Source of the DNA: an uncultured Acidobacteriota bacterium | Lineage (GTDB): Bacteria > Acidobacteriota > Vicinamibacteria > Fen-336 | Length of the DNA: 64,000 bases | NCBI GenBank assembly: GCA_964561785.1 | Contig: CAZLRF010000029.1 | Location: 1-64,000 of the forward strand | Direction: 5' to 3' | In this document: positions 24,457 to 62,254 of the stretch, in pieces | Numbering within the stretch: position 1 is the first letter of the stretch | Layout: the number at the start of each line of letters is the position of its first letter | The notes under the pieces: model-generated | The model's input: the letters and a program-made list of their open reading frames with translations, nothing else | Told to the model about the DNA's origin: nothing | The model's database searches: none | Made by a program: the position numbers and the translations under genes

Positions 24457-26235
24457 GTGCTCGCCCTCCTCCTCCTGCTCGCCGCGGCCTCGCCCTTGCC
24501 CGCGGAGAGCCGGCAGATGGTCCTGTCGGTGAGTGCGGGCTGGGACTCGACGCCGGCGCTCCTCCAGGCGTACGAGAGACCCGCGGTAGGGGCTCCGTGG
24601 CGGCCGGTGGGCCCGCCGATCGAGGCGTCGCTCGGCCGGTCCGGCCTCGCCTGGGGCCGCGGGCTCCATCCGCCGGGGCTCCCCGGCCCGCACAAGCGCG
24701 AGGGCGACGGAAAGTCGCCGGCCGGGATCTTCGAGCTGCGGCTCGTGACGGGCGACGACCCCGCGCCCCCGGTCGGCACGCTCCTGCCCTACCGCGAGGC
24801 CACCGCCACGCTGCGCTGCGTCGACGACCCCCGTTCGACCCACTACAACCGGCTCGCCGACGAGGCGACGGTCGCGAAGGACTGGTCCTCGGCCGAGGAC
24901 ATGCGGCGCAAGGACGACCTGTACCGCCTCGTCGTGTGGGTGGGCCACAACGACGCCCCGGTCCTCCCCGGCGGCGGGAGCTGCATCTTCCTGCACCTGC
25001 GCGCGGGCCCCGACTCCGCCACCGCGGGGTGCACGGCCTTCGAGAGAGAGCCGATGGAGCGCCTCCTCCGCTGGCTCGACCCCGCCGCGCGGCCGCTCCT
25101 CGTCCAGCTGCCCGACGCCGAGCACCGCGGCCGCGCCGCGGACTGGGGCCTGCCCGAGCCGCGCCCCCGCGCCCGCGACCTCGGGCTCGCCCCCGGCGTC
25201 TTCCCGCCGGGTCCCCTGAACGCCATCACCGACGTCGCCGGCGTGCGCGTGGGCCACGCGACGCTCGTCGCGGGCGACGCGGTGCGCACCGGGGTCACCG
25301 CCGTCCTGCCCCACGGCGGCAACCTCTTCCAGGACAAGGTGCCGGGCGCCGTCTTCGTCGGCAACGCCTACGGCAAGCTGGCGGGCTCCACCCAGCTCCG
25401 CGAGCTCGGCACGATCGAGACCCCGATCCTCCTCACGAACACCCTCGCGGTGGGCACGGCGGTCGAGGCCGCGGTCGACTGGACGCTCCGCCAGCCCGGC
25501 AACGAGGAGGTCCGCTCGGTGAACGCCCTCGTGGGCGAGACGAACGACGGGGCGCTCGACGACATCCGCTCGCGCCCGGTGCGCGAAGAGCACGTCCTCG
25601 CCGCGATCCGCTCGGCGCGCGGGGGACCCCTCCTCGAGGGCTCGGTCGGCGCGGGGACCGGCACCGTCGCCTTCGGCTGGAAGGGCGGGATCGGGACGGC
25701 CTCGCGTCGTCTGCCGGAGGGCCTCGGGGGCCACACGCTCGGCGTCCTCGTCCAGGCCAACTTCGGCGGCGTCCTCGTGATGGACGGGGTGCCGGTGGGC
25801 CGCGAGCTGGGGCGAGACGCCCCAGGCCCCGCCGACGGCTCCTGCATGATCGTGGTGGCGACCGACGCGCCGCTCGCGTCGCGCGACCTCGAGCGCCTCG
25901 CCGCCCGCGCGGTGTTCGGCCTCGCCCGCACGGGCTCCTCCTACAGCAACGGCAGCGGCGACTACGCGATCGCCTTCTCGACCGCCCCGTCGCTGCGCCG
26001 CCGCCACGGAGACGTCTCCGCGCGCCCGCGCGAGGAGCTGCCGACGGACGCGCTCTCGCCGCTCTTCCAGGCCGTGCTCGAGGCCACCGAGGAGGCCGTC
26101 CTCAACGCGCTGCTGCGGGCCACGACCCTCACCGGCTCGGGGCGGACCGTGGAGGCCCTCCCTCTCGACCGCCTGCGCGCCGTGCTCGCGAAGCACGGGC
26201 GCGCGAGCGCTCAGGGACGGGCCGCAGAGAGGTAG
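24457..26235 (+). CDS. Secreted fusion: L,D-transpeptidase-like (YkuD/COG3786-type) domain + DmpA/peptidase S58 aminopeptidase (592 aa)
   Basis: Signal peptide VLALLLLLAAA; KREGDGKSPAG and GSCIFLH...TAGC; then RARDLG...NAITDVAGVRVGH, GAGTG, QANFGG and NG|SGD autocleavage-type site; one continuous frame. Confidence 0.85.
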   Translation: MLALLLLLAAASPLPAESRQMVLSVSAGWDSTPALLQAYERPAVGAPWRPVGPPIEASLGRSGLAWGRGLHPPGLPGPHKREGDGKSPAGIFELRLVTGDDPAPPVGTLLPYREATATLRCVDDPRSTHYNRLADEATVAKDWSSAEDMRRKDDLYRLVVWVGHNDAPVLPGGGSCIFLHLRAGPDSATAGCTAFEREPMERLLRWLDPAARPLLVQLPDAEHRGRAADWGLPEPRPRARDLGLAPGVFPPGPLNAITDVAGVRVGHATLVAGDAVRTGVTAVLPHGGNLFQDKVPGAVFVGNAYGKLAGSTQLRELGTIETPILLTNTLAVGTAVEAAVDWTLRQPGNEEVRSVNALVGETNDGALDDIRSRPVREEHVLAAIRSARGGPLLEGSVGAGTGTVAFGWKGGIGTASRRLPEGLGGHTLGVLVQANFGGVLVMDGVPVGRELGRDAPGPADGSCMIVVATDAPLASRDLERLAARAVFGLARTGSSYSNGSGDYAIAFSTAPSLRRRHGDVSARPREELPTDALSPLFQAVLEATEEAVLNALLRATTLTGSGRTVEALPLDRLRAVLAKHGRASAQGRAAER

Positions 26236-28817
26236 AGGGCGTTGAGCAGGGCCGCGTAGGTCACGCGGCTCTGGGCCCGGTACTGGGGCCGGAAGCCGAA
26301 GAGCACGACGCGCCCCTTCCCGAGGGGAACCTCCACGAGGGCGGCCTTTCCCCGGAGCCGCTCGCCCCCGAGCAGCCAGCCGGAGAGCAGCGGATCGCCC
26401 TCGCCGTAGCGCAGGACGACCCGGCCCGTCCCGGTCTCGAAGGCCGGCGAGCCCTCGAACCACACGGGCGTCGTCTCGGGCAGACCGTGGGCGAGAGGGT
26501 CGGAAGGGTCGGCCGAGGCGGCGAGGATCGAGCCGGGGCAGAAGAAGGCCGAGGGCTCGACCCCGGAGAGGACGTTCCTCACCGGCAGGGAGAGCTGCTC
26601 GATCGCGAAGAGCGAGGCGGAATCGAGCGCCACGAGCGTCCCACCCCCTTCGACGAACGCGCGCAGCGCCGCCACACCCTCCGGGCCGAGGCCCCCCGTG
26701 TACTCGTCGGGCATCGAGCCTCTCGCGTGGCCGTTCAGGAGGGCGCCCGGCGCCTGGTCGGGGAGGACGATCGCGTCGAAGCGCTCGGCGAGGCTCCCCG
26801 CCCGGACCTCCCGGTCGTGCAGCTCCCGGTGGCCGACGCCCATCTCCTTCTCGAAGACGAACCGCGTCCAGCCCTCGTCCATGCACGGCACCCACGAGCG
26901 GTAGAGGCCGACCCGCGGGCGACGCAGGCGGAGCGATCTCGGGCGCGCGTCGACGCCTCGGGCGGCGAACCCGAGCTCGCTCGCGAGCGAGGCGACCTCG
27001 CGCCGAGCGCTCCCCGGGACGAGCAGCGTCCCCGCGGGAAACGCGCGGTCCCGGTCGGTGAACGCGTCGAGCGCCCAGCGCACGGCCACCTCCCGCTCCA
27101 GCAGGCGGCCGAGCGCCACGAGCTCGCCGCTCGCGTGGCCGATCGCGAGCATCCGGCCGGCTCCCTCGACGCGGCCCGGGGGGACGGGAGAGTCCCGGAG
27201 CGGCTCGACGTCCGCTTCGAAGGGATGGAGGACCGCCTCCGCCTCGGCCCCGAGGAGCAGCGGCAGCGTGTGCGCGGTCACGTCGTAGGGACGGCGGGGC
27301 GGCCCGCCCTCGTGCTCGCGCAGGTCGGGGTATCGCTGGCGCTCGAGGATCGTCTTCGCGAAGCCGCTCGCCGGCTGCTGCATCCTCACCACGAGCGCGC
27401 CCGCCCCGTGGGCGCGGCCGCCGGCGGTGAAGGGGGCACGTGCCCTTTGCACCTCCACCTCGCCGAGCTGCAGCGTCTCGGCGAGGCGCACGACCGCCGA
27501 GGGGTCGCGCTGGCCCGCCGGCACCACGAACGCGAACGGCACGCGCCGCTCGCTCGCCCGGCGGTTCACGCCGAGCGCGGTGCGCAGCCACTGCTCGCGG
27601 TGGGCCGCGGCGTGCTCGAGGATCGCGAGCGACGCCGCCCGCTGCGTCTCGACGATGTCGGCGAGCCGCCAGGTCCCGCCCCGCCACGGGACGGGGTGGT
27701 TCGCGGAGGCCGTCCGCGGGTCGTACCCCGCCGCGCGCCGGGCGATCTCCTCCGGCTTCACCTCGATCGGCGTCGCGAGGCGGGCGGAGGCCGTTTCGGA
27801 GAGCAGCCTCACCCCGCCGTGGGTGTGCGGGTACGCGCGGCCGGGGGTCCACGCGTCGAAGATCGCCCCCGTCACGACCCCCGCCCGGCCCGCGGTCGTC
27901 AGCTGCGCGGCCACGTGGGAGCCGAGGGCGTTCACGGCCGCCACGAGGGCCCCGTCCACGTTGGGCTCCCAGGGGTCGAGGTAGGGGGGCACGAAGATGC
28001 GCGCCCCGCGGGCGCCCATCTGGTGCACGTCGTGGACGATCTGGGGGTGCCACCGGTGGTAGAGGTGGCGCACCGTGAGCCGGGTCTCGGCCTGCGTGAA
28101 CGCGTACCAGTCGCGGTTGTTGTCGTGGCCGACGTAGGGGTGGTAGAGGACCGGCGGCGACGTGCCCTCGAACGGCGTCCCCTCCTGCCGCGCGGCCCAC
28201 TCGGCCACGATGTCGGTCCCGTCGGGGTTGTGCGACGGCAGGACGAGGAGCACCGTCGCGTCGAGCGCCGCGCGCAGGGGTCCCTCGTCCGTCGTGGCGA
28301 GCTGCTCGAGCAGCCGCAGCGACGCGAGCGTCCCGCCCACCTCGGTCGAGTGGATCGAGAACGCCATCGCGACGATCGCCTTCCCCTCGCGCACGAGCCG
28401 CTCCGCCTCGTCCTCGGACAGCCCGCGCGGGTCGGCGATCCGCGCGTTCGCCCGCCGGATCTCCTCGAGCCGCGCCTGGTTTCGCTCGGACGTCACGATC
28501 GCGAGCACGAAGGGCCGGCCCCCGGTCGTCTTCCCGACCTCCTCGACCCTCACCCGCTCGGAGGCCGCGTCGAGCGCCTTCAGGTACTCGACCACCTGCC
28601 CCCAGCCCGCGAGCTTGCCGTCCTCGCCCGGCACGAAGCCGAGGACCGACGCGGGGGCGGGGATCGGGTGTGCGGCGGGCGCCGCCGGGCCGCACAGCAC
28701 GACCGCGGCGAGGACGTGGGCGACGCCCACCACCAGGGCGAGACGCGTCCGCCCGGGACGGGGTGGGAGGCGAGCCGCGTGTCTCGTGCGCGGCGTGCCG
28801 GGACGCTGCGGCGTCAC
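26211..28817 (-). CDS. M14 family zinc carboxypeptidase-like protein
   Basis: SIHSTE (HxxE), NPDG, DNNRDW, DVHQM. The start is uncertain; GTG overlapping the thioredoxin stop is chosen. Confidence 0.85.
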   Translation of the reverse strand: MTPQRPGTPRTRHAARLPPRPGRTRLALVVGVAHVLAAVVLCGPAAPAAHPIPAPASVLGFVPGEDGKLAGWGQVVEYLKALDAASERVRVEEVGKTTGGRPFVLAIVTSERNQARLEEIRRANARIADPRGLSEDEAERLVREGKAIVAMAFSIHSTEVGGTLASLRLLEQLATTDEGPLRAALDATVLLVLPSHNPDGTDIVAEWAARQEGTPFEGTSPPVLYHPYVGHDNNRDWYAFTQAETRLTVRHLYHRWHPQIVHDVHQMGARGARIFVPPYLDPWEPNVDGALVAAVNALGSHVAAQLTTAGRAGVVTGAIFDAWTPGRAYPHTHGGVRLLSETASARLATPIEVKPEEIARRAAGYDPRTASANHPVPWRGGTWRLADIVETQRAASLAILEHAAAHREQWLRTALGVNRRASERRVPFAFVVPAGQRDPSAVVRLAETLQLGEVEVQRARAPFTAGGRAHGAGALVVRMQQPASGFAKTILERQRYPDLREHEGGPPRRPYDVTAHTLPLLLGAEAEAVLHPFEADVEPLRDSPVPPGRVEGAGRMLAIGHASGELVALGRLLEREVAVRWALDAFTDRDRAFPAGTLLVPGSARREVASLASELGFAARGVDARPRSLRLRRPRVGLYRSWVPCMDEGWTRFVFEKEMGVGHRELHDREVRAGSLAERFDAIVLPDQAPGALLNGHARGSMPDEYTGGLGPEGVAALRAFVEGGGTLVALDSASLFAIEQLSLPVRNVLSGVEPSAFFCPGSILAASADPSDPLAHGLPETTPVWFEGSPAFETGTGRVVLRYGEGDPLLSGWLLGGERLRGKAALVEVPLGKGRVVLFGFRPQYRAQSRVTYAALLNALYLSAARP

Positions 28818-29257
28818 GGCGAGGCGACGAGCGCCTGCAGACGGCCCGCCAGCTCCTCGTAGCTCGTGGCCCCCACGATCCGGGACGCCTCCTGGCCGTT
28901 CTTGAAGAAGACGAACGTGGGGACGGCGGCGATCGCGTACCTCGCGGTCAGGGCGCCCTGGACGCTCACGTCCACCGTGCCGACGAGGGCCCGGCCGTCG
29001 AAGTCGGAGGCGAGGCGCGTGACGATGGGACCCATCGCCTGGCAGTAGGGTCAGGTGGGCGACTGGAACTCCACGAGGCTCGGCCGGGGCGCCAGGAGGA
29101 CGAGCGAGTCGAAGTTGCCCGACTCGAGGACGACGAGCTTCGACGCGCCGCCGCCCGAGGCCGCGGGAGTCGACGCCGCCGGCGACGAGGAGCCGCCCCC
29201 GCCGCAGCTCGCCGCGAGAGCGCTCGCCACCAGCACCACCGCCGCTCTGCGCCTCAC
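28814..29257 (-). CDS. Thioredoxin-family lipoprotein with in-frame UGA, probable selenoprotein (U-P-Y-C)
   Basis: Track ORFs 29051-29494 and 28814-29035 are in the same frame, separated only by TGA-CCC-TAC-TGC-CAG-GCG. GTG start with AAGGAGG SD, lipobox LAASC, continuous Trx fold (NFD..VL..P.LVEF, VPTFVFFKNG). Confidence 0.85.
29021..29039 (-). promoter_or_regulatory. Bacterial SECIS-like hairpin
   Basis: GGCGAUGG-GUC-CCAUCGUC begins 11 nt after the UGA; the apical loop is 19 nt from the UGA and starts with GU. Confidence 0.65.
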
Positions 29258-29388
29258 GCGGTCCTCCTTCCCCGGGGTCGAGATTAGCACGAGGCCGGGG
29301 CCGCACCGGCCCTCGCTCGCCGCCGACGGTGCCGTCGTGCCGTCCGAAGTTCCTTGAAAATCGAAAGCAGGCCGTTCAATATTCAAGG

Positions 29389-30552
29389 ATGCGGATCCTC
29401 CCTCGGCCCGCCCTCGCCCGGCGAGTCGAGACCGCCCTCGGCCGGGCCCCGGTGACAGTCCTCCTCGGCCCTCGGCAGTGCGGCAAGACGACACTCGCCC
29501 GCTCGATCGCTCGCGACCGCAGGGCCGCGGTCCTCGACCTCGAGAACCCCCGCGACGACGCGCGGCTGGCGGAGCCCCTGCTGGCGCTCGAGGGGATGCG
29601 CGACCTGGTCGTCCTCGACGAGATCCAGCGCCGCCCCGACCTGCTGCCCGTCCTGCGGGTGCTGGCCGACCGCCGCCCGCTCCCCGCGCGGTTCCTGCTC
29701 CTCGGCAGCGCCTCTCCCGGGCTCGTCCGGGGCGCCTCCGAGTCGCTGGCGGGGCGGGTCGAGTTCGTCGACATGGGCGGCTTCTCGGTGGAGGAGGTGG
29801 GGGAGCGTCAGTGGCGCCGGCTCTGGACCCGGGGAGGGTTCCCCGAGGCCTTCCGGGCGCGCTCCCGTGAGGCGAGCGCCGCCTGGCGCGAGGGCTTCGT
29901 CCGGACGTTCCTCGAGCGGGACCTGCCGCAGCTCGGCGTCCAGGTCCCGGCGGCGATGCTCCGCCGCTTCTGGACCATGCTCGCCCACTACCACGGCCAG
30001 ACGTGGAACAGCTCGGCCATCGCGTCCTCCCTCGGCCTCTCGCAACCCACGACCCGGCGCTACCTCGACCTCCTCACCGACGCGTTCGTGGTCCGCCAGC
30101 TCCCGCCCTGGTTCGAGAACGCCGGCAAGAGGGTGGTGAAGTCGCCCAAGGTCTACGTCCGCGACTCGGGGCTTCTGCACACCCTGCTCGGCATCGAGGA
30201 CGAGGCGTCCCTCGAGTCCCATCCGAAGCTCGGCGCCTCCTGGGAGGGCTTCGTGCTCGAGCAGGTCCTCGCCTGGCCCATCGAGCGCCAGGCCTGGTTC
30301 TGGGCCACGCACGCGGGCGCCGAGATCGACCTCGTCGTGGTGCGGGGGTCCCACCGATGGGGCTTCGAGTTCAAGTACGCGGACGCGCCGCGGATGACCC
30401 GCTCCATCCACGTCGCCCTTGCCGACCTCAGGCTCGACCGCGTGTTCGTGGTTTCGCCGGGGGAGAGGTCCTATCCTCTGCACGACCGCGTCGAGTGCGT
30501 CTGCCTGGCCGACCTGCCGCGAATCCGTCGGATCGTGATGGGGGGACCGTGA
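29389..30552 (+). CDS. AAA_14 ATPase with DUF4143 domain
   Basis: GPRQCGKT Walker A, VVLDEIQ Walker B, LLGSAS, ESLAGR, GGFP, KSPKVYVRDSG, EIDLV. Confidence 0.9.
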   Translation: MRILPRPALARRVETALGRAPVTVLLGPRQCGKTTLARSIARDRRAAVLDLENPRDDARLAEPLLALEGMRDLVVLDEIQRRPDLLPVLRVLADRRPLPARFLLLGSASPGLVRGASESLAGRVEFVDMGGFSVEEVGERQWRRLWTRGGFPEAFRARSREASAAWREGFVRTFLERDLPQLGVQVPAAMLRRFWTMLAHYHGQTWNSSAIASSLGLSQPTTRRYLDLLTDAFVVRQLPPWFENAGKRVVKSPKVYVRDSGLLHTLLGIEDEASLESHPKLGASWEGFVLEQVLAWPIERQAWFWATHAGAEIDLVVVRGSHRWGFEFKYADAPRMTRSIHVALADLRLDRVFVVSPGERSYPLHDRVECVCLADLPRIRRIVMGGP

Positions 30553-61373: not shown

Positions 61374-62150
61374 TCAGACGGTGGCGAGCGGGGCCGGCGC
61401 GGGGGCGAAGTGCTCCGCGGCCGACTTCGCGCGCGCGATCCCGAAGACGTACAGGCCGAGACCCACCTTGGCGACGAGGTCGGCGATCGTGTAGCCGACC
61501 TGGAGCGCCACCTCGGCGGTCGCCCCTCCCAGACCCAGGTCGGGCGCGAGGAACGCGATCGGGTAGAAGCTCCAGGAGAGCAGGATCAAGAGCCGGGCCC
61601 GGGCCACGAGGTCCTTGACCGCGTCGGGCTGCCGGTCGATCGAGCGGGAGAGCTGCGACCAGAGCACGTACATGATGTAGAGGAACGGGAGCATGCTGAG
61701 CGACCACCAGAGCAGGCGGGTCGGTGTGGCGTCCGCCACCTCCCCGGGGTAGCCGAGCCCGATCATGAGCGTGGCCGCCACGACCAGCTTCGTGAGGAGG
61801 GGGCGGGCCACCGCGGCCGCGAGGGCGAGGACGGCGACCAGCTCGACGAGAAGCAGCGGAACCGTGAGGAGCCAGTCGGCGTAGCGGTACGCGTCATTGA
61901 AGGGGAGGCCGGTGGGGGCGTACGCGCCTCCCTGGAGGGCGTAGGCGGCCTTCCAGCTCTCGTAGATGCGGAAGTAGTGGTAGCAGGCGATCGCCGTCAC
62001 CAGTCCGGAGACGGTGAGAGCGGTCCGGTACTGGGGGGCGACCTGGGCTCGCGACAGGAAGAAGAACAGGGTCGCCGCTCCCATCCCGGCAACGGTCAGG
62101 GAGAGCAGGTTCGCCACCAGCCCAAACTGTCCGGGGTTCAGGGTTTCCAT
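61374..62150 (-). CDS. Microbial rhodopsin, xanthorhodopsin/Gloeobacter-rhodopsin family, DTE proton-pump motif (258 aa)
   Basis: YHY (His), YRYADWLLTVPLLLVE, GYPGE, SWSFYPI, GYTIADLVAK (retinal Lys); ATG 62150 with AAGGAG SD. Confidence 0.95.
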   Translation of the reverse strand: METLNPGQFGLVANLLSLTVAGMGAATLFFFLSRAQVAPQYRTALTVSGLVTAIACYHYFRIYESWKAAYALQGGAYAPTGLPFNDAYRYADWLLTVPLLLVELVAVLALAAAVARPLLTKLVVAATLMIGLGYPGEVADATPTRLLWWSLSMLPFLYIMYVLWSQLSRSIDRQPDAVKDLVARARLLILLSWSFYPIAFLAPDLGLGGATAEVALQVGYTIADLVAKVGLGLYVFGIARAKSAAEHFAPAPAPLATV

Positions 62151-62254
62151 CGAGTGAGACTCCTTGTGGGGCAAGCGCATCGAGCGCCGTCACTCTTGAA
62201 GACGCCCCGGCCGAGTCTATGTTTTGTAAAACTTTTGAATAGCCCAGGAGACGA

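What the first reader, a model, noticed from the sequence alone, without database searches (positions are those of the whole stretch)
28814..29257. Hidden selenoprotein: lipid-anchored thioredoxin with a U-P-Y-C active site and SECIS-like hairpin
Seen: the ORF track splits this gene at a TGA that sits exactly at the first (nucleophilic) position of the CxxC motif (EFQSPT-TGA-PYC). The thioredoxin fold continues in frame on both sides. A G-U-looped 8-bp hairpin begins 11 nt downstream, matching bacterial SECIS geometry (established). The N-terminus has a strong SD, a lipobox (LAASC) and a Gly/Ser/Ala linker, so the protein would be an exported, membrane-tethered Sec oxidoreductase. Extracytoplasmic Sec thioredoxins are uncommon. 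Its stop overlaps the GTG of the secreted M14 peptidase, suggesting coupling.
Basis: partly seen in the sequence, partly recalled or inferred. Interest (0 to 1): 0.8.

Follow-up and report, generated by a model that had tools for sequence, protein, structure and literature searches.

The report
Lipid-anchored selenocysteine thioredoxin gene, mis-annotated
The in-frame TGA is almost certainly a genuine selenocysteine codon in an exported, lipid-anchored thioredoxin. About 70 related soil and sediment Acidobacteria (class Vicinamibacteria) share it, and public databases hold it only as a truncated 73-residue fragment. It is a solid new member of a known kind of selenoprotein.

Summary
A minus-strand gene (29257..28814) encodes a lipoprotein signal peptide, a Gly/Ser/Pro linker and a thioredoxin domain. 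Its CxxC motif reads TGA-P-Y-C, with the TGA at 29051-29053.

The TGA is not an error or a private mutation:
- Three other assemblies carry the identical gene.
- 70 related genome and metagenome loci have TGA in the same column. Basal relatives have TGC or TGT there.
- 65 of 67 of these genes also end in TGA, so TGA is a normal stop in these organisms.

The hairpin after the TGA is unremarkable by single-sequence folding. Comparison makes the case. Its 8-bp stem is invariant in 70/70 Sec forms. Synonymous variation is zero across codons +4 to +11, apart from the loop codon. The stem is degraded in 8/8 basal Cys forms. It meets all four published bacterial SECIS constraints. Three Cys forms nested inside the Sec clade still carry an intact or decaying hairpin.

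Two contigs that carry the Sec-thioredoxin also encode a peroxiredoxin with TGA at its catalytic Cys.

Not shown: selA, selB, selD and tRNA-Sec in this genome, selenium incorporation, and the redox direction or substrate.

Sec thioredoxins and exported Sec oxidoreductases are already known, so this is a new member of a known kind.

The parts
28814..29257 (-). Complete selenoprotein gene: 147 codons plus stop. It encodes a prolipoprotein thioredoxin with active site U69-P70-Y71-C72.
   Evidence: The identical gene is found in L110-L112. Orthologues with TGA occur in 70 loci.
29280..29292 (-). Conserved upstream motif TCGTGCTAATCTC. It looks like an extended -10 (TGnTAnnnT) and is the probable promoter of the gene.
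   Evidence: The same motif (TCGTGCTAaCCTC) sits about 30-40 nt before the start codon in most related loci. Promoter function is inferred.
29263..29267 (-). Shine-Dalgarno sequence GGAGG, 5 nt upstream of the GTG start.
   Evidence: GGAGG is also present before the start in most relatives.
29204..29257 (-). Lipoprotein signal peptide, residues 1-18: n-region VRRR, h-region AAVVLVASALAA, lipobox A-A-S-C18.
   Evidence: A lipobox-type motif followed by CGGG is present in all 42 relatives where the reading frame upstream of the TGA lies within the contig and the pattern was found, most often AAGC. This is a pattern match only; no signal-peptide predictor was available.
29141..29203 (-). Flexible Gly/Ser/Pro/Thr/Ala linker (residues 19-39) between the lipid anchor and the domain.
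   Evidence: The linker varies in length and composition among relatives.
28838..29134 (-). Thioredoxin-fold domain (residues 42-140), including the cis-Pro loop V-P-T.
   Evidence: Pfam PF00085, E 1.3e-19. The best solved-structure matches by sequence are classical thioredoxins, E 4e-18. P113 and T114 are invariant.
29051..29053 (-). In-frame TGA, the selenocysteine codon (U69), followed by C (UGA-C).
   Evidence: TGA is found in 70 loci. The same column is Cys in 8 loci and in 12 database proteins.
29016..29044 (-). SECIS element. Lower stem UGC (the Cys72 codon, 29044-29042) pairs with GCG (29018-29016). A 2x2 internal loop CA/AC follows. Upper 8-bp stem is 29039-29032 paired with 29028-29021. 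Apical loop is GUC (29031-29029).
   Evidence: Fold. The stem is invariant in 70/70 Sec forms and is lost in basal Cys forms. Synonymous variation is zero at codons +4 to +11 except the loop codon. It meets the bSECIS constraints quoted in PMC13188914.
26211..28817 (-). Downstream gene for an M14-family metallopeptidase-like secreted protein (868 aa). Its GTG start (28817-28815) overlaps the thioredoxin stop.
   Evidence: Pfam PF00246. It lies immediately downstream of the thioredoxin gene in about 45 loci. In relatives a VRRL... signal peptide starts at the overlapping GTG. JGI gene calls start 81 nt later on L110, so the start in the window is not certain.

Best explanation
The gene encodes a real selenoprotein.

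Steps inferred from the established bacterial Sec pathway:
1. During translation, the hairpin 11 nt downstream of UGA-69 binds SelB-GTP-Sec-tRNASec.
2. Selenocysteine is inserted instead of terminating.

Steps inferred from the signal peptide and lipobox:
3. The full-length 147-residue precursor is exported.
4. It is lipidated on Cys18 and cleaved by signal peptidase II.
5. A thioredoxin domain ends up tethered to a membrane on the periplasmic side by a linker of about 20 residues.

Inferred from thioredoxin chemistry: the domain catalyses thiol-disulfide exchange. Sec69 is the attacking nucleophile. It forms a mixed selenenylsulfide with the substrate, and Cys72 resolves it.

Not established: the direction of the reaction (reductant, isomerase or oxidant) and the substrates. 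My best guess is a reductant or protector of envelope protein thiols. In most lineages, including this one, it is co-expressed with an M14-like secreted protein.

Evolution shown here: Sec arose once from Cys within this Vicinamibacteria lipoprotein-thioredoxin family. It reverted to Cys at least three times, leaving fossil hairpins.
For: Shown:
- The TGA sits at the CxxC nucleophile position inside a significant thioredoxin match.
- The identical gene with TGA occurs in three independent assemblies.
- TGA is in the same column in 70 loci, including four GTDB genome assemblies named Acidobacteriota or Vicinamibacteria.
- Cys occupies that column in 8 loci and in all 12 full-length database homologues.
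- 65 of 67 Sec-type genes also terminate with TGA, so there is no codon reassignment.
- Among 57 unique Sec-type sequences (median 83% nucleotide identity), the four-fold codons GCG, CCC, GTC and ACG in the hairpin never vary. The rare GTT loop codon is kept in 49 of 53. Elsewhere, 21 conserved four-fold codons have a mean synonymous entropy of 0.67 bits (Mann-Whitney p about 0.001).
- The upper-stem energy is -11.0 to -11.4 kcal/mol in 70/70 Sec forms. In the 8 basal Cys forms it is -6.3 to +4.3.
- The few changes in the stems preserve pairing: U-A to U-G in one sequence, and U-G/U-A alternation in the lower stem.
- The geometry meets all four published bSECIS constraints: a 3-5 nt loop starting with G followed by G or U, an 8-bp stem, 18-19 nt from UGA to the loop, and MFE below -7.5 kcal/mol.
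- Cys forms nested in the Sec clade keep the hairpin: L105 and L108 intact, L107 decaying.
- A second selenoprotein gene, an AhpC/TSA peroxiredoxin with TGA at the peroxidatic Cys, lies on two of the same contigs, L100 and L045.
- The lipobox is conserved in relatives.
- Some Acidobacteriota are known to decode Sec (PMC1794560; PMC12013277).
Against: - No selA, selB, selD or tRNA-Sec is present in the 64-kb window. No tRNA-Sec was found in 605 kb of related loci. The rest of the genome could not be reached.
- No Rfam family matches the hairpin.
- Single-sequence folding is not significant.
- There is almost no true compensatory covariation, because the element is nearly invariant. The RNA argument therefore rests on synonymous-site conservation and on the Sec/Cys contrast.
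- Part of the conservation could reflect the conserved peptide PYCQAMVPIVT. However, Cys forms with the same or a similar peptide use other codons (L006, L107).
- Export and lipidation are inferred from a pattern only.
- No redox partner (DsbD, CcdA or DsbB) is found in the window.
Confidence: 0.9

Rival explanations
1. The TGA is a sequencing or assembly error, or a private nonsense mutation. The gene would then be a pseudogene of an ordinary Cys thioredoxin.
For: TGC to TGA is a single-base change. A relative 94% identical over the domain (P0019/L108) has TGC. Gene callers and public records treat the gene as a fragment.
Against: The identical TGA occurs in three other assemblies. TGA is present in 70 diverged loci, with the reading frame and high GC3 maintained on both sides. 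The downstream hairpin is conserved only in TGA forms.
Confidence: 0.01
2. UGA is decoded, but not as selenocysteine. Either the organism has reassigned the codon, or the hairpin stimulates read-through by a near-cognate tRNA that inserts Cys, Trp or Arg.
For: The Sec machinery was not seen in the sequence available. Downstream hairpins can stimulate read-through in other systems (established knowledge).
Against: TGA is the normal terminator of 65 of 67 of these same genes and of roughly half of the genes in the window. The codon aligns only with Cys at a redox nucleophile position, which is the classic Sec signature. The hairpin matches the SelB-type SECIS model, including G then G or U at the start of the loop. 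A second gene, a peroxiredoxin, has TGA exactly at its catalytic Cys on the same contigs.
Confidence: 0.04
3. Termination at the UGA is the normal outcome. The locus would then make a 68-residue lipopeptide and, by reinitiation at the ATG five codons downstream, a separate 73-residue C-terminal piece, which is the form in public annotation.
For: An ATG (Met74) is conserved 12 nt after the TGA. The 73-residue ORF is what databases hold.
Against: No Shine-Dalgarno sequence precedes that ATG, and the ATG lies inside the 8-bp stem. The split would cut the fold before its active-site helix and separate the two redox residues. Full-length Cys homologues exist at every depth of the tree. The Met is also conserved in the Cys forms, so it is simply a residue of the fold.
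Confidence: 0.03

Closest known systems
Selenocysteine-containing thioredoxin (Trx selenoprotein family, PF00085, UxxC). It was verified experimentally for Treponema denticola Trx, as listed in PMC13188914 (citing Kim et al. 2015) and PMC1794560.
   Same: Same Pfam fold family. Sec occupies the first position of the redox motif (UxxC). It is decoded through a bacterial SECIS just downstream of the UGA, and Cys-containing homologues exist.
   Different: The known examples listed are from Spirochaetes, Deltaproteobacteria and Clostridia, and I know of no signal peptide on them (my own knowledge, not checked here). This protein has a lipoprotein signal peptide and a linker, the motif U-P-Y-C, and comes from Vicinamibacteria (Acidobacteriota). 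Orthology with those proteins was not tested.
Exported Sec thiol-disulfide oxidoreductases: DsbA-like, DsbG-like, 'thiol:disulfide interchange protein' (PF13098), and UGC-containing TlpA-family and Redoxin-family selenoproteins (PMC1794560, PMC13188914).
   Same: A thioredoxin-fold domain with UxxC-type Sec that acts outside the cytoplasm. This shows that Sec proteins can be exported.
   Different: Those belong to other subfamilies: DsbA, TlpA/Redoxin and Thioredoxin_2. This protein scores best as classical Thioredoxin (70.6 bits). It scores only 34 bits for PF13098 and does not match Redoxin, AhpC-TSA or DsbA. Lipid anchoring is not reported for them in the texts I read.
Thioredoxin-family lipoproteins of the cell envelope, such as Streptococcus pneumoniae Etrx1 and Etrx2 (PMC3914529).
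   Same: A lipid-anchored thioredoxin-fold protein facing the outside of the cytoplasmic membrane. Etrx proteins supply reducing power to envelope repair enzymes, which is the role I think most likely here.
   Different: Etrx proteins use Cys only, come from a Gram-positive organism and have a known partner (MsrAB2). This protein uses Sec, the host is presumably diderm, and the partner is unknown.
Escherichia coli fdhF SECIS and the general bacterial SECIS model (bSECISearch constraints quoted in PMC13188914).
   Same: A hairpin immediately 3' of the UGA. The apical loop begins with G followed by G or U. UGA-to-loop spacing is 18-19 nt (allowed range 16-37), the upper stem is 8 bp, and MFE is below -7.5 kcal/mol.
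   Different: There is no sequence similarity, and no bulged U is evident. The loop is very small (3-5 nt). Binding by SelB was not tested.
Extracytoplasmic or lipoprotein selenoproteins of the SAO system: SaoB, SaoC and SaoX (bioRxiv 10.1101/2022.07.06.499078).
   Same: A precedent for signal-peptide- or lipoprotein-bearing selenoproteins that databases truncate at the UGA.
   Different: Those are unrelated folds (substrate-binding proteins, CC-COOH proteins) with CU motifs, found in anaerobic Firmicutes.

Membership tests
Bacterial selenoprotein (SelB/SECIS-dependent UGA recoding) | In-frame UGA aligned with Cys in homologues | tested here: met
   70 TGA against 8 TGC/TGT loci in the same column. 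All 12 full-length database homologues have Cys.
Bacterial selenoprotein (SelB/SECIS-dependent UGA recoding) | UGA conserved among orthologues and coding signal maintained on both sides | tested here: met
   57 unique Sec-type sequences down to 62% nucleotide identity. The identical gene occurs in three further assemblies.
Bacterial selenoprotein (SelB/SECIS-dependent UGA recoding) | SECIS hairpin meeting the bSECIS model: 3-9 nt loop with G in its first two positions, 4-16 bp upper stem, 16-37 nt from the UGA, MFE <= -7.5 kcal/mol | tested here: met
   8-bp stem. Loop GUC, or GGUCC, GUUCC or GUGCC if the closing pair opens. 18-19 nt spacing. -11.4 kcal/mol for the upper stem alone. Constraints taken from PMC13188914.
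Bacterial selenoprotein (SelB/SECIS-dependent UGA recoding) | Selection on the RNA structure beyond selection on the protein | tested here: met
   Zero synonymous variation in the stem codons against 0.67 bits elsewhere (p about 0.001). The hairpin is lost in basal Cys forms. True double-sided covariation is absent because the element is nearly invariant.
Bacterial selenoprotein (SelB/SECIS-dependent UGA recoding) | selA, selB, selD and tRNA-Sec present in the same genome | not testable with these tools
   None is present in the window. Indirect support: a second TGA-at-Cys gene, a peroxiredoxin, lies on related contigs.
Bacterial selenoprotein (SelB/SECIS-dependent UGA recoding) | Selenium physically present in the protein | not testable with these tools
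   Needs 75Se labelling or mass spectrometry.
Thioredoxin family (Pfam PF00085) | Score above the Pfam gathering threshold across the whole domain | tested here: met
   70.6 bits against 23.5, residues 42-140 matching profile positions 3-101 of 103. The best matches among solved structures are thioredoxins, E 4e-18.
Thioredoxin family (Pfam PF00085) | CxxC-type motif and cis-proline loop in register | tested here: met
   U69-P-Y-C72 aligns with WCGPC, and V-P113-T114 is invariant.
Canonical cytoplasmic thioredoxin TrxA (NCBIfam TIGR01068 equivalog) | Score above the equivalog cut-off | tested here: not met
   57.2 bits against a cut-off of 96.8. No NCBIfam model reaches its cut-off. The protein is thioredoxin-fold but not a TrxA orthologue, and no curated selenoprotein model covers it.
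Bacterial lipoprotein | Signal peptide ending in a lipobox with an invariant Cys | tested here: met
   VRRR-AAVVLVASALAA-S-C18 in the window. An L-A-[AG]-[AG]-C-G-G-G type is conserved in relatives. This is a pattern match only. Lgt/LspA processing was not tested.
TlpA/ResA/CcmG-type or DsbA-type periplasmic oxidoreductases | Match to Redoxin/AhpC-TSA (TlpA-like) or DsbA Pfam models | tested here: not met
   Only Thioredoxin, Thioredoxin_2 and TraF are reported at E <= 0.01.

The most novel reading that the evidence does not exclude
This would be the first recognised lipid-anchored selenocysteine thioredoxin. It would define a selenium-dependent thiol-protection or reduction pathway in the cell envelope of widespread soil and sediment Vicinamibacteria. 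In that pathway the enzyme would be translationally coupled to, and would serve, the secreted M14-like protein. For example, it could keep that protein's single conserved cysteine (Cys769 of the reading frame as extracted) reduced, much as DsbG protects lone cysteines in E. coli.
Probability: 0.15. Interest if true: 0.65.

Novelty: new member of a known kind. Interest (0 to 1): 0.45.

Why it matters
1. It corrects a systematic annotation error. At least five database clusters, about 80 sequences, hold this protein as a 73-residue 'thioredoxin 1' or 'thioredoxin family protein' fragment, for example HYN05019.1. No NCBIfam model would rescue it.
2. It implies that Vicinamibacteria, an abundant but little-studied soil and sediment class, decode selenocysteine. 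It places a selenoenzyme in their cell envelope.
3. The family is a clean natural series: Cys ancestors, one Sec clade, and three Cys revertants with intact or decaying SECIS. It could be used to study how Sec is gained and lost, and what Sec buys a thioredoxin outside the cytoplasm.

It does not change what is known about the mechanism of Sec decoding.

Tried and rejected
- Single-sequence folding of the hairpin region is not better than shuffles (z = -0.23). I did not use it as evidence.
- Rfam found nothing at gathering thresholds or at E <= 10 around the site. Rfam has no model that captures this element.
- The window was annotated with Pfam to look for selA, selB, selD, DsbD, CcdA or DsbB. 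None was found.
- A search for tRNA-Sec in the window found only tRNA-Gln.
- ARAGORN on all 605 kb of loci found no tRNA-Sec.
- The first alignment (A1) was too diverse to seed a collection scan, so I rebuilt it (A2, A3).
- An exact look-up of the 868-residue M14 product found nothing. Public gene calls use a later start.
- P0013/L001 looked at first like a TGA-split fragment. It is instead a relative whose N-terminal half, including the active site, is missing, with the upstream motif sitting right before the remnant.
I judged it unnecessary given.
- I considered M14 as an obvious disulfide substrate and rejected it. Only one Cys is conserved, in 5 of 6 full-length relatives.
- The M14 protein has no solved relative by sequence. 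Its C-terminal half has no significant Pfam match.
- I considered a Tat signal, because RR is frequent in the n-region. RR is not invariant among relatives, so this stays undecided.
- I screened the window for other in-frame TGA genes. The same-frame neighbours found are separate genes (Ddl and a TPR protein; DUF1295 and DUF308).
Full report
**What is there.** The window is 72.8% GC. On the minus strand, 29257..28814 reads GTG ... TGA and translates to VRRRAAVVLVASALAASCGGGGSSSPAASTPAASGGGASKLVVLESGNFDSLVLLAPRPSLVEFQSPT*PYCQAMGPIV...LQALVASP*. The internal stop is a TGA at 29053-29051, codon 69. With Cys substituted there, Pfam Thioredoxin (PF00085) matches residues 42-140 across the TGA (E 1.3e-19, 70.6 bits against a cut-off of 23.5). 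The closest solved structures by sequence are classical thioredoxins, with E down to 4e-18 over about 91-100 residues. In those alignments the TGA falls on the first Cys of WCGPC. A GGAGG lies 5 nt before the GTG. The N-terminus is a lipoprotein-type signal peptide: n-region VRRR, an Ala/Val/Leu h-region, then A-A-S-C18. A Gly/Ser/Pro/Thr/Ala linker of 21 residues follows. The stop TGA overlaps a GTG (GTGA) that opens the frame of an 868-residue protein with an N-terminal M14 peptidase domain.

**Is the hairpin more than chance?** Not on its own. GGCGAUGG-GUC-CCAUCGUC starts 11 nt after the TGA and is the core of the predicted fold. However, the 66-nt region folds no better than dinucleotide shuffles (z = -0.23). 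Rfam has no match. The case rests on comparison with relatives.

**Relatives.** A protein search returned 12 full-length homologues at 54-74% identity. All have the same lipobox-CGGG N-terminus, and all have Cys at the TGA column, in motifs CPAC, CPYC, CSAC and CSHC. Protein databases cannot show Sec forms, so I fetched DNA instead.
- Four GTDB genome assemblies named Acidobacteriota or Vicinamibacteria (L002-L005, 70-75% identity) all read KFQSPT-TGA-PYCQAMVPIV.
- A metagenome scan seeded on motifs downstream of the active site returned 80 loci.
- Over both scans and the window, 70 loci have TGA in that column, 6 have TGC and 2 have TGT.
- The window's own gene, identical in sequence and including the TGA, occurs in three further assemblies: two JGI metagenomes and one SRA-run assembly (L110-L112).

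A sequencing error or a private nonsense mutation is excluded.

**TGA is still a stop in these organisms.** 65 of 67 Sec-type genes also end in TGA. So do about half of the genes in the window. Codon reassignment is therefore excluded.

**Evidence for selection on the RNA.** I compared 57 unique Sec-type sequences, with median pairwise nucleotide identity 83% and minimum 62%.
- The 34 nt after the TGA are almost invariant: CCGTACTGCCAGGCGATGG(T/G)(T/G)CCCATCGTCACGC.
- The four-fold degenerate codons inside the stem never vary: Ala GCG, Pro CCC, Val GTC, Thr ACG.
- The loop codon is the otherwise rare GTT in 49 of 53 cases.
- Elsewhere in the gene, 21 equally conserved four-fold codons have a mean synonymous entropy of 0.67 bits, with a minimum of 0.13 (Mann-Whitney p about 0.001).
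- Imposing the 8-bp stem gives -11.0 to -11.4 kcal/mol in 70/70 Sec forms. It gives -6.3 to +4.3 in the 8 Cys forms from the scans.
- The rare changes keep pairing. One sequence has U-A changed to U-G. In the lower stem, the U of the Cys72 codon pairs with G (26 sequences) or A (31 sequences).

The full element is: UGA, 6 nt, lower stem (C)UGC/GCR(G), a 2x2 internal loop CA/AC, an 8-bp upper stem, and a loop of GUC, UUC or UGC. If the closing G-C pair opens, the loop becomes GGUCC, GUUCC or GUGCC. This meets all four constraints of the published bacterial SECIS model (PMC13188914): the loop is 3-9 nt with G in its first two positions, usually followed by G or U, the upper stem is 4-16 bp, the spacing from the UGA is 16-37 nt (here 18-19), and the MFE is at or below -7.5 kcal/mol. 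Because the element is so conserved, there is essentially no double-sided covariation. That limitation should be kept in mind.

**Evolution.** A neighbour-joining tree of the domain places all Sec forms in one clade nested within a grade of Cys forms. Three Cys forms sit inside the Sec clade.
- L108 (P0019) is 94% identical to the window over the domain and 88% overall. It has TGC with the hairpin intact.
- L105 (P0009) has TGC with the hairpin intact.
- L107 (P0002) has TGC with a partly decayed hairpin that still keeps the GTT codon.

These look like Sec-to-Cys reversions carrying fossil SECIS elements. One contig (L109) has TCA (Ser) with an intact hairpin. That is either a loss-of-function variant or an error.

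**Sec trait in the lineage.** The window contains no selA, selB, selD or tRNA-Sec. No tRNA-Sec occurs in the 605 kb of loci held. I could not reach the rest of the genome. I screened all loci for in-frame TGA codons flanked by coding signal. This found a second family: an AhpC/TSA peroxiredoxin (Pfam E 2.2e-27) with TGA exactly at the peroxidatic Cys (FFFPKAFTAG-TGA-TREAGEF). It lies on L100 and L045, two contigs that also carry the Sec-thioredoxin. The two copies are 88% identical, both have the TGA, and in L100, where it was folded, a strong hairpin lies downstream. Peroxiredoxin is a known selenoprotein family (PMC1794560, PMC13188914). This is independent evidence that these Vicinamibacteria decode Sec, although it is not from the window's own organism. 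Sec-decoding Acidobacteriota are already on record (PMC1794560; PMC12013277; PMC13582414).

**Context.** An M14-like gene follows directly in about 45 loci. The junction is GTGA in 45 of 67. In relatives a typical signal peptide (V-R-R-L-L-L...A-x-A) begins at that overlapping GTG, which supports translational coupling. JGI gene calls on the window's twin contig start the M14 gene 81 nt later, so the start in the window is less certain. One subclade, the L002 group, lacks the M14 gene. There the thioredoxin stands alone, or converges on an opposite-strand gene. M14 has only one partly conserved Cys, so it is not an obvious disulfide substrate. A conserved motif TCGTGCTAaCCTC lies about 30-40 nt before the start codon in most loci. 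It looks like an extended -10 promoter. In the window, an AAA_14/DUF4143 ATPase gene sits between the thioredoxin and the divergent 'Gate' gene that is its direct neighbour in other loci.

**How it most likely works.** The following points are shown:
- a recoding-type UGA at the nucleophile position of a thioredoxin fold;
- a SECIS under selection;
- a conserved lipobox.

The following is inferred from established Sec biology. SelB-GTP-Sec-tRNASec binds the hairpin and delivers Sec at UGA-69. The UGA-C context is a weak terminator.

The following is inferred from the signal peptide. The protein is exported, lipidated at Cys18 and tethered on a flexible linker.

The following is inferred from thioredoxin chemistry. 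Sec69 attacks substrate disulfides or sulfenic acids, and Cys72 resolves the selenenylsulfide.

The redox direction is unknown. The x-x dipeptide Pro-Tyr is the glutaredoxin type, and the position equivalent to the buried Asp26 of E. coli thioredoxin is Glu here and Lys in most Sec forms. No DsbD, CcdA or DsbB lies in the window.

**Comparison with what is known.** Thioredoxin (PF00085, UxxC) is a listed bacterial selenoprotein family, verified experimentally for Treponema denticola. DsbA-like, DsbG-like, thiol:disulfide-interchange and TlpA-family Sec proteins are known or predicted exported relatives (PMC1794560, PMC13188914). Signal-peptide-bearing and lipoprotein selenoproteins are known in the SAO system (bioRxiv 10.1101/2022.07.06.499078). 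This protein is not a TrxA equivalog (57 bits against 96.8), and no NCBIfam model covers it. Public records hold it as a 73-residue fragment named 'thioredoxin 1' or 'thioredoxin family protein [Vicinamibacteria bacterium]'. I found no paper that links Vicinamibacteria with a selenoprotein.

**Verdict.** This is a genuine, widespread and mis-annotated selenoprotein subfamily. It is a new member of a known kind and of moderate interest (0.45).

Noticed in passing
L100 1533-1970 (minus strand) and L045 3844-4260 (minus strand): A second hidden selenoprotein: an AhpC/TSA (BCP-like) peroxiredoxin with in-frame TGA at the peroxidatic Cys (FFFPKAFTAG-TGA-TREAGEF). In L100, the copy that was folded, a strong hairpin follows. 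It lies on the same contigs as the Sec-thioredoxin, and the two copies are 88% identical with the TGA conserved.
   Followed up: partly
L108 1017-1463, L105 978-1424, L107 312-752: These are Cys (TGC) versions nested inside the Sec clade. They still carry the SECIS hairpin: intact in L108 and L105, partly decayed in L107. They look like recent Sec-to-Cys reversions with fossil SECIS elements.
   Followed up: yes
L109 543-860: One contig has TCA (Ser) in place of the TGA, with the hairpin intact (SPT-S-PYC). It is either a loss-of-function variant or a read error. It was seen once only.
   Followed up: no
window 61377-62189 (minus strand): A bacteriorhodopsin-like gene (Pfam PF01036, E 1.8e-41). 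It has a D-T-E motif in helix C (RYADWLLTVPLLLVE) and the retinal lysine (ADLVAKVG). This points to a proteorhodopsin- or xanthorhodopsin-type proton pump in a Vicinamibacteria-like contig.
   Followed up: partly
window 29280-29292 (minus strand) and the equivalent position in most related loci: A conserved motif TCGTGCTAaCCTC lies about 30-40 nt upstream of the thioredoxin start codon. It resembles an extended -10 promoter element (TGnTAnnnT).
   Followed up: partly
window 29389-30552 (plus strand): An AAA_14/DUF4143 ATPase gene lies between the thioredoxin gene and the divergent 'Gate' (nucleoside-recognition domain) gene. In L003, L038, L049, L078 and others the Gate gene is the direct neighbour, so this looks like an insertion in the window's lineage. 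It is also present in L110-L112.
   Followed up: no
L001 1-569: A relative in which the thioredoxin gene lacks its N-terminal half, including the active site. The upstream motif sits directly before the remnant, and the M14 gene still follows with a GTGA overlap. This is either a deletion or an assembly chimera.
   Followed up: partly
window 26211-27401 (minus strand), the C-terminal 396 residues of the M14-like protein: A large C-terminal region has no significant Pfam match (only DUF4350 at E 0.008) and no solved relative by sequence. It contains the only partly conserved cysteine (FFCPGS).
   Followed up: partly
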